Shown piece by piece: positions 5,330 to 14,386 of a stretch of 30,280 nucleotides of DNA. Numbering within the stretch: position 1 is the first letter of the stretch; the number at the start of each line of letters is the position of its first letter. The notes below the pieces were generated by a model that saw only the letters and a list, made by a program, of their open reading frames with translations, made no database searches and was not told where the DNA came from. Source of the DNA: a virus (lineage: Duplodnaviria > Caudoviricetes); the IMG/VR virus record IMGVR_UViG_3300023176_004599, positions 1 through 30,280 of that record; one strand, given 5' to 3'. A program made the position numbers and the translations under genes.

Positions 5330-6166
5330 CTACGAGTTGTTTATGAAAAAAAAAGTTGGGTTTAACTCCACTGGTGTGGAAAAACTATGATTACATTCTT
5401 CGTTACTACAAACAAATGTAAAGTCGTTGTTTATGCCATTTTTATTGATGTCAGAATTTGACTTTTGTAGTTGACGTATTGTTGTGCTATCACTATTTGC
5501 TAACCATTCAAGTATTTCGTTTATGTCAGTAATTAAATCGCCATTAGGTGTTGTGATACTTTCAATAGTGTCAGCCAGTATAACCATATTAGCTGCGGTT
5601 GATTTTTCTAAGCTACTTTTGAATAGTTCATGTAGTTGTGCTTGGTCGTCAACGCCTTCCATCTTTCGCATAACTCTTGCATTTTCAGTTATTTTAATCT
5701 GATTGCTTGCTACTGATTTCAAGGTGTTTGGTTTAAACACAATACGTAAGCCATTTTTAAGTTCAGTTTCGATTGACTCGATTGTTTTAACTTTACTTAG
5801 GATGTCGACGATTTTAATTTCATAGCTTTCAGTATTACTACAATTAGGACATGTTGCGTCAACTGGAATATTGCCATCATTGGCACTAATACGACTAGCA
5901 AGTAAGACAACATCTACATCAGGCATACATATTTCATATGGATCTGACATGTCTGGCAGAATACTTTTTAGAATTTCAAACAGACTTTCACCATTGTAAA
6001 CACTGTCTGGTACTTGTAACAACATTTCATCCTTAAAGCTAAGTGGCATAACGCCAATTTCGCCTTGTTCTGTTAATTGTGGTTTATTTTTGTACCATTT
6101 TCCTTGTGTAGGAAGTTTTACATATATCTCTTTTGTTCTGTAATAGTCAGATAATACACTGGGCAT
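5330..6166 (-). CDS. T4 gp26-like baseplate hub subunit/assembly protein
   Basis: N-terminal YVKLPTQGKWY, KDEMLL, two Cys pairs (CPNC, CSNEEC) and a C-terminal PTFFF, matching the layout of gp26-like proteins. Confidence 0.65.
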   Translation of the reverse strand: MPSVLSDYYRTKEIYVKLPTQGKWYKNKPQLTEQGEIGVMPLSFKDEMLLQVPDSVYNGESLFEILKSILPDMSDPYEICMPDVDVVLLASRISANDGNIPVDATCPNCSNTESYEIKIVDILSKVKTIESIETELKNGLRIVFKPNTLKSVASNQIKITENARVMRKMEGVDDQAQLHELFKSSLEKSTAANMVILADTIESITTPNGDLITDINEILEWLANSDSTTIRQLQKSNSDINKNGINNDFTFVCSNEECNHSFSTPVELNPTFFFINNS

Positions 6167-6221: not shown

Positions 6222-8141
6222 ATGGCAGTAATAAACATACCATATGGTGGACAGATGGTGGGAATAGAAGTCCCAGATTTTGCTATGGAAGCAACACAAT
6301 CTGATATTCTGTCTCAAGTTCAAAGGCAAAATGATACATTACAAGCAATTGCTAGTAGAATGGGTGTTGAGGCTGCAGCTACACAACAACAAACTAAAGA
6401 AATTACACAAACATTAAAACAAACATCAGACAATAACAACGATACCAATCGTAAAGCAATGCAAGATTTGGCTGCTGGTCTTCAAAAACCACTAACACAA
6501 GCAATGAGTCTGTCAGGAAAAGAAAAGTTTAGCGATTTAATTGGTCGTGGCGGCATTATGGGAACACTTGGGCTTACTACTATAGGTGCTCAATTAGGAA
6601 CACTTGTTGGTATACTTGAAGAATTTGGATCAAGTTTAAGTGCTTTAAGAAGAACTGGTGCTGGTCTAGGAATGGACTTTGTTGAGCTCAGAACACAAGC
6701 TGCTACTGTTGGCTTGGGAATGGAAACACTTGCAAAAGTTGTTACTGAAAATGGTCCTGCTATTAGGATGTTGGGCGACAACATGGTTGATAGTACCAAC
6801 AACTTTGTGCAATTCCAAAGGGAAATGCAAGACGCAACTAGAAATGCTGGTTATTTTGGAATGAGTGCAAATGAAATGGCAGCGTTCTTAGTAGACGAGC
6901 TTGAATTGAGACGTATGGAAAGTGGTGAAAGGTTAACAGAAGCAAATGCTCGTGCAGAAGTAATTGAAAGTTTGAAAGAAAACCTTAAACTAAACGAAAT
7001 TGCCGCAAGTATAACTGGTGAAGACATTCAAGATAGAATAAGATTGAGAAATGAATTTAGACGACAAGCAGTAGTAGCAGTAGCAGCAAGAAATCTAAAT
7101 GAAGACCAACTGCAAGCACAAAACAAATTGATTGAAGGATTTAATCAACTTGGTCCAACAGTAGGACCAGTACTTAGTGCAGCATTAACTAATATGGTTG
7201 CTGGATTAGCACCTGACATGGGGAATGAAGACTTTACACAGTTGGCTGCTGGTCTTGCAGCTAGAGGAGTTGACATTAGGTCGTTCTTGGAAGAAGGTGT
7301 TGCAAATGTTCAAGCTGGAATGGATCCAACACAGATAGAAGCAAATGCTATAGCACTTGCTGGACAAATTAAAAATATTGAGTTTAGTGCTAGTGATTTA
7401 GCACAAGCACAAGCTGGTGTTCCAAGTGCAATGTTAGCAATACAAGCAAGTGCTGAGGTATTTTCAGATGGAACAGACGATGTTGCAACAGCATTAGACC
7501 GTTTAAAAACAGGATTGATTAACTTTGCTGAGGCATTGGACAATGGTGATCTTTCAGCTTCTGCTATTCAATTAGATAGTAATATCATTGGAGAACAGGT
7601 AAGAGCTGGGATTATGGATGGTTTCCTAGATGCATTTAATGTTGACGATGTTACCAACAGCGGACTTGGTAAACTAATGGAAGGAATGAAGGATGCTACT
7701 TCACCAAGCGGTGCATTTACTAGTTTTATGAATGCCATGATTCAAGGCACCACATTACTATCTGGTGCACAATTTATTGGCGGCATAGCAGGCTTAGGAA
7801 ATAACGATACTCTAGATCATATTATTAATGCACTTGGTCCAGCTGCAATGGCCCTTTTTAGTGGCGGTGCTGGGTTATTTAATAGCGCAAGGGGCGGTGA
7901 TGCAACAGCCAGACAAAGTATTAGAGATCAAATGAATCCTAATAGTTCTAGTTTCATGGGCAATCAAAGTTTCTCACAACTATTACCAATGTTAGCTGGT
8001 GCTGGGTTAGGTGCTGCAGCAATGGCAACAGTTGATTCAACTTCATTAGCAGAAGCATTACGTGATACATTTACAGATGCTGACCCAATGCCAGTTAGAA
8101 TTGTAAGTTCTGCTATACCATTTGGTCCAAACAACAACTAA
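6222..8141 (+). CDS. Putative tape measure / baseplate hub-like helical protein
   Basis: 639 aa, Ala/Gly/Gln/Leu-rich, apparently helical with hydrophobic Gly-rich segments; lies next to the gp26-like frameshift gene. Confidence 0.5.
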   Translation: MAVINIPYGGQMVGIEVPDFAMEATQSDILSQVQRQNDTLQAIASRMGVEAAATQQQTKEITQTLKQTSDNNNDTNRKAMQDLAAGLQKPLTQAMSLSGKEKFSDLIGRGGIMGTLGLTTIGAQLGTLVGILEEFGSSLSALRRTGAGLGMDFVELRTQAATVGLGMETLAKVVTENGPAIRMLGDNMVDSTNNFVQFQREMQDATRNAGYFGMSANEMAAFLVDELELRRMESGERLTEANARAEVIESLKENLKLNEIAASITGEDIQDRIRLRNEFRRQAVVAVAARNLNEDQLQAQNKLIEGFNQLGPTVGPVLSAALTNMVAGLAPDMGNEDFTQLAAGLAARGVDIRSFLEEGVANVQAGMDPTQIEANAIALAGQIKNIEFSASDLAQAQAGVPSAMLAIQASAEVFSDGTDDVATALDRLKTGLINFAEALDNGDLSASAIQLDSNIIGEQVRAGIMDGFLDAFNVDDVTNSGLGKLMEGMKDATSPSGAFTSFMNAMIQGTTLLSGAQFIGGIAGLGNNDTLDHIINALGPAAMALFSGGAGLFNSARGGDATARQSIRDQMNPNSSSFMGNQSFSQLLPMLAGAGLGAAAMATVDSTSLAEALRDTFTDADPMPVRIVSSAIPFGPNNN

Positions 8142-12713: not shown

Positions 12714-13874
12714 ATGGCAGACAACCTAATGGAAAATTGGGCAGAAACTAAAACAGCCCTAACAGACGGTCTAACTGGAACAAAGAAAAAAGTGATGGAA
12801 ACAACACTTGAAAACACTAAGCGTTACTTGTCAGAAAGTGCAAGTCCTGGTGCAACTCAAGCAGGCAACGTTGCAACACTTAACAAAGTGATTCTTCCAG
12901 TTATTCGCCGTGTGATGCCAACTGTTATTGCTAACGAGATCGTTGGTGTACAGCCTATGACAGGCCCAGTTGGACAAATCCACACACTACGTGTGCGTTA
13001 CGCTGAAACATTTGACAGCGCAACAGCAGGCGATGAGGCACTAAGCCCATTCCAAATCGCAACAGGTTACTCAGGTAATGCAACTACTAACCGTGCAGAC
13101 GCAACAGCGACTCTAGAAGGCACAGCTGGTAAGAAAATGAGTATCCAAGTCCTAAAGCAAACTGTTGAAGCTAAAACACGTAAGCTATCAGCACGTTGGA
13201 CTTTTGAGGCAGCACAAGATGCTAACTCAATGCACGGTCTAGACGTTGAAGCAGAAATCATGCAAGCACTTGCACAAGAGATTACTGCTGAAATCGACCA
13301 AGAGATCATCTCATCTCTATCATCGCTAGCAGGTTCAGCTACAGACACATACAACCAAGCTGGTGTAAGTGGTACTGCTACTTTTGTTGGTGACGAACAT
13401 GCAGCACTAGCAGTTCTAATCAACAAAAATGCAAACACAATTGCAGCACGTACACGCCGTGGCGCAGGTAACTGGGCAGTTGTAAGCCCAGACGTTCTAA
13501 CTGTTCTACAGTCAGCAACAACAAGCGCATTTGCACGTACAACTGAAGGTCCTTTCGAGGCACCAACAAACACAAAATTCGTAGGTACACTAAACGGTAC
13601 TATGCGTGTTTATGTAAACCAGTACGCAGCAAACGACGACATCCTAGTAGGTTATAAGGGTTCAACAGAAACAGACGCAGCAGCGTTCTATTGCCCATAC
13701 ATCCCACTAATGTCAAGCGGTACAGTACTAGACCCACAAACATTCGAGCCAGTTGTTAGCTTCATGACTCGTTACGGTTATGTGGAACTAAGCAACCAAG
13801 CATCATCGCTTGGTAACGCAGCAGATTACCTAAGTAAAATTGCTGTTACAACAAACAACCTATCATTCCAATAA
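12714..13874 (+). CDS. gp23: Major capsid protein (T4 gp23-like)
   Basis: IRRVMP, GVQPMTGPVGQI, VEAKTRKL, EITAEID, TRRGAGN, FYCPYIPL, MTRYG motifs; AAGGAG RBS. Confidence 0.97.
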   Translation: MADNLMENWAETKTALTDGLTGTKKKVMETTLENTKRYLSESASPGATQAGNVATLNKVILPVIRRVMPTVIANEIVGVQPMTGPVGQIHTLRVRYAETFDSATAGDEALSPFQIATGYSGNATTNRADATATLEGTAGKKMSIQVLKQTVEAKTRKLSARWTFEAAQDANSMHGLDVEAEIMQALAQEITAEIDQEIISSLSSLAGSATDTYNQAGVSGTATFVGDEHAALAVLINKNANTIAARTRRGAGNWAVVSPDVLTVLQSATTSAFARTTEGPFEAPTNTKFVGTLNGTMRVYVNQYAANDDILVGYKGSTETDAAAFYCPYIPLMSSGTVLDPQTFEPVVSFMTRYGYVELSNQASSLGNAADYLSKIAVTTNNLSFQ

Positions 13875-13890
13875 TAGGTTACAAATTAAG

Positions 13891-13917
13891 AAAAAAGGCA
13901 CTTCGGTGCCTTTTTTT
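13891..13917 (+). terminator. Rho-independent terminator with UUCG tetraloop
   Basis: AAAAAAGGCAC-TTCG-GTGCC-TTTTTTT. Confidence 0.92.
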
Positions 13918-13939
13918 GTGACTTTTTTTAAAAAAAGTG

Positions 13940-13968
13940 TTGACATTTGTTTCTGTATATACTATATT
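13940..13968 (+). promoter_or_regulatory. Strong sigma70-type promoter TTGACA-N17-TATATT
   Basis: Perfect -35 (13940-45), 17-nt spacer, -10 at 13963-68, A/T-tract UP-like element upstream. Confidence 0.8.
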
Positions 13969-13974
13969 ATAAAC

Positions 13975-14180
13975 ATAACAGAGACGACGGTCCGAGTTAG
14001 ATAGTGCAAGGAAGAGGAGTAGACAGGCTCCGAACTTGGCTAGTAGCTGTAGTAGCAGCGCATGAGCATGGAGACATGAAGATGCGTATTTTGGAAGTAA
14101 CTATCCGATGCTAGGCTCCTGGGTATATGACAGCGAGACTGTAAACCTAGGTTGAGGGTATTCTCGAGTCCCTCCTATCA
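13975..14180 (+). ncRNA. Putative structured ncRNA, domain 1 (pseudoknotted, unknown family)
   Basis: Helices 13992-98/14033-39, 14016-20/14027-31, 14040-45/14109-14, 14046-59 hairpin, CATG-GAGA-CATG, 14118-24/14145-51, 14154-58/14170-74; pseudoknot GATAGT 14000-05/ACTATC 14100-05; no credible ORF. Confidence 0.65.
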
Positions 14181-14183
14181 TAT

Positions 14184-14290
14184 ATTATAGTGTTTTAGTA
14201 TACACACCAGAGTAGATGCACCTACTTTCCTGTGCATAGGACAAGGGCCGAAAGGCTATCAAGTGAGTGTGTATACTAAAACATTATAAT
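14184..14290 (+). ncRNA. Putative structured ncRNA, domain 2: 24-bp stem capped by three hairpins, two with complementary loops
   Basis: 14184-207 pairs with 14267-290 (one G-U); loops ATGCAC (14216-21) and GTGCAT (14232-37); GGCC-GAAA-GGCT hairpin. Confidence 0.7.
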
Positions 14291-14322
14291 TGCTTTTCCT
14301 TTCAAATTGATAACTACAAAAG

Positions 14323-14347
14323 AGCTAGCCTTGTGCTAGTTTTTTTT
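14323..14347 (+). terminator. Rho-independent terminator
   Basis: GCTAGC-CTTGT-GCTAGT followed by T7. Confidence 0.75.
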
Positions 14348-14357
14348 GTCTCTATAC

Positions 14358-14365
14358 GATAAATA
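14358..14365 (+). promoter_or_regulatory. Late promoter GATAAATA
   Basis: NATAAATA upstream of ATG 14387. Confidence 0.65.
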
Positions 14366-14386
14366 TAATTAGTACGGAGACAAAAT

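What the first reader, a model, noticed from the sequence alone, without database searches (positions are those of the whole stretch)
14184..14290. RNA domain with two exactly complementary hairpin loops: possible self-multimerising, pRNA-like element
Seen: a 24-bp stem (one G-U) topped by a junction with hairpin A (GAGTAG-ATGCAC-CTACTT), hairpin B (TCCT-GTGCAT-AGGA) and a GAAA-tetraloop hairpin. Loops ATGCAC and GTGCAT are perfect reverse complements, and A and B abut with no linker, which may disfavour an intramolecular kiss. Established: phi29 prohead RNA forms rings through intermolecular pairing of two complementary loops, and T4-like phages are not known to use one. Inference: a hand-in-hand oligomerising RNA encoded beside the head genes, possibly excised by cleavage of the long stem, or alternatively a kissing-loop aptamer or switch.
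Basis: partly seen in the sequence, partly recalled or inferred. Interest (0 to 1): 0.8.

Follow-up and report, generated by a model that had tools for sequence, protein, structure and literature searches.

The report
Portable kissing-loop phage small RNA

Summary
In detail: a 24-bp stem (one G-U) closing hairpins A, B and C, with loops ATGCAC/GTGCAT. It is a conserved RNA family with no Rfam match. In 66 of 66 distinct cores all six loop-loop pairs are kept; the two outer pairs change together (five loop types) while the palindromic UGCA core never varies. Helices A and B also covary. The module is not tied to head genes. It occurs as the excised spacer of phage two-piece tmRNA, before tRNAs, or behind manA-family RNAs, as here (13977-14184, behind its own sigma70 promoter). 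It was absent next to the capsid gene in 80 related loci. On a tmRNA tree the spacer cargo is swapped between close relatives. A pRNA role is therefore unlikely. Best reading: a processed, trans-acting small RNA that likely oligomerises head-to-tail (0.4); an intramolecular kiss is the main rival (0.3). Comparative data cannot separate the two; expression as a free RNA and function are untested. The scan noted this same module before on another genome (e1-5678089).

The parts
12714..13874 (+). Major capsid protein gene (context only; T4-type, relatives are PA5oct/121Q-like jumbo phages)
   Evidence: phrog_138 E 7e-104; 70% identity to Pseudomonas phage PA5oct/MIJ3 capsid
13890..13917 (+). Intrinsic terminator-like hairpin ending the head-gene transcript
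13940..13968 (+). Sigma70-type promoter (TTGACA-17-TATATT, 11 of 12), predicted to start the non-coding transcript near 13975
   Evidence: similar sites upstream of homologues
13977..14184 (+). Diverged manA-family RNA (RF01745), likely co-transcribed upstream of the module
   Evidence: full-length Rfam match, 30.2 bits (gathering score 55.2), E 5.6e-6; homologues in 20 of 80 capsid loci; aligned homologue L031 passes the gathering score at 61.9 bits
14184..14207 (+). 5' arm of the carrier stem (stalk, P1)
   Evidence: stalk kept with different sequence in other contexts
14209..14228 (+). Hairpin A: 6-7 bp with a conserved G-U wobble (G14210-U14227), loop ATGCAC 14216-14221
   Evidence: five loop-proximal pairs kept in 66 of 66 cores with compensatory changes; G-U in 59 of 66
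14228..14241 (+). Hairpin B: 3-4 bp, loop GTGCAT 14232-14237
   Evidence: pairs kept in 65, 66, 66 and 63 of 66 cores with several pair types
14242..14263 (+). Arm C: CAAG linker, variable hairpin 14246-14257, (AT)CAAG linker; A14244 invariant, A14261 at least 90% conserved; the two linkers may zip into an A-rich internal loop (inferred)
   Evidence: loop sequence and length vary
14264..14290 (+). 3' arm of the carrier stem
14318..14347 (+). Hairpin plus T8 run, likely (bidirectional) terminator of the non-coding transcript
   Evidence: fold; the scanner listed it on the - strand only

Best explanation
Shown by comparison: the fold, the A-B complementarity, one copy per contig, and movement between three slots (tmRNA spacer, before tRNAs, behind manA). 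Inferred: release by RNase P plus 3' trimming in the tmRNA and tRNA slots, and by a double-strand cut or trimming of the long stalk here; coaxial stacking of A on B as a rod of constant length with sticky ends; and the job, most likely a multivalent decoy or scaffold that binds a host protein during infection (least certain step, about 0.2 overall).
For: Loop-loop pairs kept in 66 of 66 distinct cores: outer pair 1 C-G 44 / A-U 22; outer pair 6 A-U 31 / C-G 26 / U-G 5 / U-A 4. Searches that left the loops free gave the same result: 31 of 31 members among 120 phage tmRNA loci, 25 of 25, 58 of 58 passing a loop-blind fold filter. On alignment A1, 0 of 500 shuffles reached the covariation score, and slid controls gave 0.03-0.19 against 0.52. 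Outer bases give Watson-Crick pairs only for A-with-B, never A-A or B-B, in all 5 loop types, which fits head-to-tail pairing. The spacer between the loops is 10 nt in 63 and 9 nt in 3 of 66, and is fully pairable. A crude phosphate model leaves a 32-34 A gap for a fully paired cis kiss at 30-degree bends and closes only near 90 degrees. The tmRNA spacer is absent from mature tmRNA (PMC11915505, passages). Precedent: manA RNAs, the upstream neighbour family, oligomerise through intermolecular kissing loops (bioRxiv 10.64898/2026.07.01.735769, parts 1-3 of 5), and covarying loop contacts of ROOL and GOLLD proved intermolecular (bioRxiv 10.1101/2024.12.08.627333, passages).
Against: Covariation cannot tell cis from trans pairing. 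In the same crude model, fraying about 3 junction pairs lets a cis kiss close at 30-degree bends, and the junction bases can pair with either A or B. The simple A-B hairpin is on average only 1.9 kcal/mol less stable than the two-hairpin form. The 66 cores fall into about three lineages, so independent compensatory events number only a few (at least 3). No data show a free, stable RNA, and no partner protein was identified.
Confidence: 0.4

Rival explanations
1. The loops kiss within one molecule, giving a compact monomer that acts as an aptamer or protein decoy, in the manner of loop-loop closed riboswitch or SRP Alu folds (recalled).
For: Same covariation. Conserved G-U wobble and junction adenines suggest tertiary docking. 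Closure is possible in the crude model if about 3 junction pairs fray. Glutamine-aptamer (glnA) matches sit in the same RNA cassette of relatives L019 and L031.
Against: No linker; arms of 3-7 bp; every spacer position shows compensated pairing; a fully paired cis kiss needs about 90-degree bends at both junctions.
Confidence: 0.3
2. The module is a two-state switch: hairpins A+B versus the simple ATGCAC/GTGCAT hairpin or an A-plus-kiss pseudoknot, perhaps timing precursor processing.
For: All three helices covary, as mutually exclusive helices also would. RNAalifold's consensus is the simple hairpin. The energy gap is about 1.9 kcal/mol.
Against: The two-hairpin form wins in 50 of 52 sequences even without kissing energy. 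The alifold result is biased by a one-column shift of 12 rows. No fixed downstream gene to regulate.
Confidence: 0.12
3. The element is a passive, well-folded spacer or a DNA-level inverted repeat that only helps neighbouring tRNA, tmRNA or manA fold and be processed.
For: It always lies beside processed RNAs inside a stem, and other spacer types fill the same slot.
Against: A passive spacer would not keep an invariant loop core, matched loop changes, a G-U wobble and junction adenines. G-U pairs favour the + strand RNA over a DNA cruciform.
Confidence: 0.08
4. The invariant UGCA loops read or mimic tRNA-Cys(GCA) or tRNA-Ala(UGC) anticodon loops, so the RNA binds tRNA or decoys an anticodon nuclease.
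For: The core never varies although simple loop pairing would allow it. One subfamily has a 5-bp stem with a 7-nt CU-GCA-YA loop. Frequent location beside tRNA genes.
Against: Outer loop bases follow each other, not a tRNA. Most loops are 6 nt and lack the U33/purine-37 pattern (recalled anticodon-loop rule).
Confidence: 0.05
5. It is a prohead RNA that forms a ring in the DNA-packaging motor, like phi29 pRNA.
For: Two complementary loops on a junction; here it lies 310 nt downstream of the capsid gene.
Against: Not linked to head genes in relatives. No match to any Rfam family. T4-type portal and capsid. pRNA is described as unique to phi29-like podoviruses, the large terminase taking its place in T4 (PMC5066667, passages). 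Predicted expression is from a sigma70 promoter.
Confidence: 0.03

Closest known systems
manA RNA motif (Rfam RF01745; Weinberg 2010 PMC2864571; assemblies in Ren et al. 2026, bioRxiv 10.64898/2026.07.01.735769)
   Same: Short RNA of aquatic T4-like phages, next to tRNAs; oligomerises through intermolecular kissing loops; a diverged manA lies directly upstream here.
   Different: The module has no manA match, is about 75 rather than about 200 nt, has one loop pair with a palindromic core, and mostly occurs without manA.
Intervening sequence of permuted two-piece tmRNA (RF04321, RF01849; PMC11915505)
   Same: About 56 of 73 members are exactly this spacer, between the CCA and the GGGG of an alphaproteobacterial-type phage tmRNA. 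One published spacer carries a tRNA gene as cargo.
   Different: In the passages read the spacer is described only as absent from mature tmRNA. Here it carries conserved structured cargo that is swapped between relatives and also occurs outside tmRNA.
phi29 prohead RNA (PMC5066667, PMC4201828)
   Different: pRNA has a three-way junction, a CCA bulge, 120-174 nt and a phi29-type motor. This is a four-way junction with abutting hairpins in T4-type phages, unlinked to head genes.
GOLLD and ROOL RNAs (bioRxiv 10.1101/2024.12.08.627333)
   Same: Phage RNAs of unknown function near tRNA islands, held in oligomers by kissing loops.
   Different: Several hundred nucleotides with many contacts; no sequence or Rfam match.

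Membership tests
phi29-type prohead RNA | Match to a catalogued RNA family model | tested here: not met
   0 Rfam matches at gathering score in the window; among 19 weak matches at E<=10 only a miRNA model (E 1.1) covers the module
phi29-type prohead RNA | Two complementary loops | tested here: met
phi29-type prohead RNA | Three-way junction and CCA bulge in helix A | tested here: not met
   four helices meet; the stalk here is an unbroken 24-bp stem
phi29-type prohead RNA | phi29-like podovirus with gp16 ATPase motor | tested here: not met
   T4-type portal, protease, capsid, late sigma factor, baseplate hub. The PF05894 search of 5 contigs was empty but had no positive control
phi29-type prohead RNA | Intermolecular ring that binds proheads and is needed for packaging | not testable with these tools
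   needs biochemistry
manA RNA (upstream element 13977-14184) | Score above the RF01745 gathering threshold | tested here: not met
   30.2 versus 55.2 bits, E 5.6e-6, model positions 1-192
manA RNA (upstream element 13977-14184) | Homology to sequences that pass the threshold | tested here: met
   L031 scores 61.9 bits, is hit by the window's sequence at E 2e-6 and aligns end to end
manA RNA (the module itself) | Overlap with the manA model | tested here: not met
   the match ends at 14184
Permuted tmRNA intervening sequence | Lies between the acceptor-piece CCA and the coding-piece 5' end | tested here: not met
   not in this window (no tmRNA); met for homologues
Known self-cleaving ribozymes and riboswitches in Rfam 15 | Covariance-model match | tested here: not met
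   no match over the module in the window or in 5 module-bearing tmRNA loci plus L126 at E<=0.5

The most novel reading that the evidence does not exclude
Phages use the cut-out spacer of their two-piece tmRNA, and equivalent stems beside tRNA and manA genes, as a plug-and-play expression slot for a library of small RNAs; this module is one of the smallest natural self-assembling RNAs, a 75-nt four-way junction that builds protein-free rings or filaments through a programmable six-base kiss.
Probability: 0.3. Interest if true: 0.8.

Novelty: new variant of a known kind. Interest (0 to 1): 0.6.

Why it matters
The tmRNA spacer is usually treated as discarded sequence; here it carries conserved, exchangeable RNA cargo in phages, which opens a small, easily tested catalogue of new phage RNAs. 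If the kiss is intermolecular, a 75-nt natural RNA with five natural, partly orthogonal loop pairs would be a minimal model for RNA self-assembly and a ready building block. It also argues that several phage motifs filed as cis-regulatory, such as manA, are members of trans-acting RNA cassettes.

Tried and rejected
blastn of 13930-14360 against 50,697 phage records found only promoter- or terminator-like matches. A tmRNA-anchored pattern in the prokaryote genome collection gave 84 stretches, none a member; this tests one context and one spacing only. Of 117 metagenome stretches 42 passed my tmRNA filter, which missed about ten further true members. In one search, 3 of 28 hits were chance, 33 of 91 failed the fold filter (one of them, L657, a true member). 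Sequencing runs: all holders share only small fractions of the stretch. Logan contigs of RNA libraries cover the manA part in 4 of 4 runs and the module in 1 of 4; on a tmRNA locus its core was covered in 3 of 4 runs, always joined to flanks. Contigs cannot show ends, strand or level, so this is no evidence either way. One contig (X4) joins a manA-type stalk to a tmRNA coding piece through the module and may be an assembly chimera. Capsid and terminase searches in 5 module-bearing contigs were empty because they are fragments or lack the region; G001 has a T4 gp32. The context classifier mislabelled 4 members (an extra TGCA in the stalk) and missed one tmRNA; corrected by eye and. The GAAA tetraloop as a docking motif was rejected: not conserved. 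Literature: searches for the loop sequences and for phage, tmRNA, intervening and kissing terms found no description of this module. Subscription journals are largely missing, and bioRxiv supplements (manA constructs of Ren et al.) could not be seen.

Full report
Observation. The structure is present at the stated coordinates: a 24-bp stem with one G-U (14184-14207 with 14267-14290), hairpin A with loop ATGCAC (14216-14221), hairpin B with loop GTGCAT (14232-14237) abutting it, and hairpin C (14246-14257). The + strand folds far better than shuffles (z -8.2; - strand z -5.8). The paired-loop feature arose in 1 of 200,000 shuffles of the interior. Rfam has no family for it.

Surroundings. The window is part of a T4-type large phage: late sigma factor, gp47/gp46-like nucleases, portal, protease, capsid, then tail and structural genes; the closest annotated capsids are those of PA5oct/MIJ3 at 70%. 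The capsid gene ends in a terminator-like hairpin (13890-13917), followed by a near-consensus sigma70 promoter (13940-13968). From about 13977 to 14184 lies a full-length but weak match to the manA motif (30.2 bits, E 5.6e-6). Homologues of that RNA occur after the capsid gene in 20 of 80 related loci; one, L031, passes the Rfam threshold and aligns end to end with the window. A hairpin with a T8 run follows at 14318-14347. The module is thus the 3' part of a predicted non-coding transcript of about 370 nt (inference), separate from the head-gene message.

Distribution. An exact pattern for the two hairpins found 25 viral stretches. In 14 the module is the intervening sequence of a permuted two-piece tmRNA (10 called by ARAGORN; 4 by eye); in 9 it follows a manA-like RNA; in 2 it lies between manA and tRNA-Pro. 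The tmRNAs match the alphaproteobacterial model, so hosts are likely alphaproteobacteria (inference). Further scans raised the set to 73 distinct members: about 56 in tmRNA spacers, 9 behind manA-like RNAs, 8 directly before tRNA genes (with 5 rows corrected by eye). None was found after the capsid gene in the 80 related loci, of which 60 hold at least 500 nt downstream by my count. Two manA-linked copies sit upstream of a small heat-shock-like gene (label recalled, not scanned). Five contigs searched whole hold one copy each; all five encode a permuted tmRNA, and in three the module lies outside it. On a tree of 82 tmRNAs built without their spacers, the spacer type needs 29 changes (minimum 5; shuffled mean 42), and starred branches force at least 4, 3 and 2 changes for the three module subtypes; near-identical tmRNAs such as L209 and L225 carry different cargo (loci with short flanks and duplicates were left out). 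The spacer is therefore an exchangeable slot. No member was found in the prokaryote genome collection with one tmRNA-anchored pattern.

Structure. Among 66 distinct cores all six loop-loop pairs are kept in 66. The loop types are CTGCAA/TTGCAG 31, ATGCAC/GTGCAT 22, CTGCAT/GTGCAG 5, CTGCAC/GTGCAG 4 and CTGCAT/ATGCAG 4. Some of my patterns fixed loop letters or the cores, so the loop-blind sets matter: 31 of 31, 25 of 25 and 58 of 58 had complementary loops and the UGCA core. Helix A keeps its five loop-proximal pairs in 66 of 66 with compensatory changes and a G-U wobble in 59; helix B keeps 63-66 of 66. On the MAFFT alignment of 52 members, 0 of 500 shuffles reached the observed covariation, and slid controls scored 0.03-0.19 against 0.52. 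These sequences fall into about three lineages, so independent events are few, though L283 shows both outer changes in the window's own scaffold. The spacer between the loops is 10 nt in 63 and 9 nt in 3. One junction base can pair with either A or B in every subfamily, as in one-step branch migration. Arm C varies freely in its loop, while A14244 is invariant. The module is enclosed by a long stem in all contexts: predicted enclosing pairs have medians of 21 (tmRNA, including the acceptor stem), 26 and 30.

Mechanism. In the tmRNA slot the module must be cut out, because the spacer is absent from mature tmRNA and tRNA-processing enzymes make the cuts (PMC11915505, passages). Before tRNAs its 3' side would be freed by RNase P (established knowledge, inferred here). 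Here the stalk is 24 bp, long enough for RNase III (recalled length rule; untested). One copy per genome in changing positions fits a trans-acting RNA. On cis versus trans pairing: the outer loop bases give Watson-Crick pairs only between A and B, never A-A or B-B; the arms are short and unlinked; and a crude phosphate-only model needs about 90-degree bends at both junctions for a fully paired cis kiss, but closes at 30 degrees if three junction pairs fray (recalled helix parameters). A constant 10-nt spacer with a mobile junction fits a coaxial A/B rod with loops at opposite ends. Precedent favours trans pairing: manA RNAs form pentamers, decamers and a 60-mer through intermolecular kisses (bioRxiv 10.64898/2026.07.01.735769, parts 1-3 of 5 read, supplements closed), and covarying contacts in ROOL and GOLLD proved intermolecular (bioRxiv 10.1101/2024.12.08.627333, passages). 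The simple hairpin is only 1.9 kcal/mol less stable on average but loses in 50 of 52. The job is inferred only: a multivalent decoy or scaffold for a host protein. The invariance of the UGCA core is unexplained by pairing alone and hints at recognition by a partner.

Comparison and novelty. Weinberg 2010 (PMC2864571, passages) and the S-CREM1 paper (PMC9964418, passages) describe manA in cyanophage RNA clusters but, in the passages read, not this module; PMC3978253 (passages) added nothing on spacers. Seven literature searches found no description. The scan's own notes describe the same module on another genome (e1-5678089) and other cargo in tmRNA spacers; I had recorded the tmRNA context before that look-up and tested it here. 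Verdict: a real, uncatalogued, portable phage RNA with a covarying kissing interaction, a new variant of the known class of phage structured RNAs; interest 0.6.

Noticed in passing
L185, L139, L244 and others, tmRNA spacers: A second recurring spacer cargo with GTCAGTAAGTC and CGCAACCTTG motifs (11 of 82 rows); no Rfam match in L185 or L138.
   Followed up: partly
L144, L200, L166 and others, tmRNA spacers: A third recurring spacer cargo with a CTGATAAA loop (16 of 82 rows); no Rfam match in L144 or L200.
   Followed up: partly
L019:3736-3782, L031:2935-2984, L019:4200-4284: Glutamine-riboswitch aptamer matches between the capsid gene and manA, and a freshwater-2 RNA after manA: the slot after the capsid gene is a variable RNA cassette.
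   Followed up: no
window 14050-14056 with 14098-14106 (manA part): Loops with UAGU and ACUA are complementary and read UGGU/ACCA in L036, like the L5-L7 kiss of manA assemblies; some homologues have mismatches (by eye).
   Followed up: partly
L606, L617, L628 around 700-790: Another conserved structured element found as a by-catch (terminator-like hairpin followed by a CTGCAT...ATGCAG hairpin); no Rfam match at E<=0.01.
   Followed up: partly
window 14357-14370: GATAAATA box before the next gene, recurring in relatives; resembles a T4-type late promoter (recalled).
   Followed up: no
L087, L091, L460 downstream of the module: A further conserved stretch and a weak ROSE-like match (L466, 34.8 bits, below threshold) before a small heat-shock-like gene.
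   Followed up: partly
window 5330-6166 and 6222-8141: Baseplate hub gene on the opposite strand, followed by a 639-aa protein with no PHROG match just before the portal gene.
   Followed up: no
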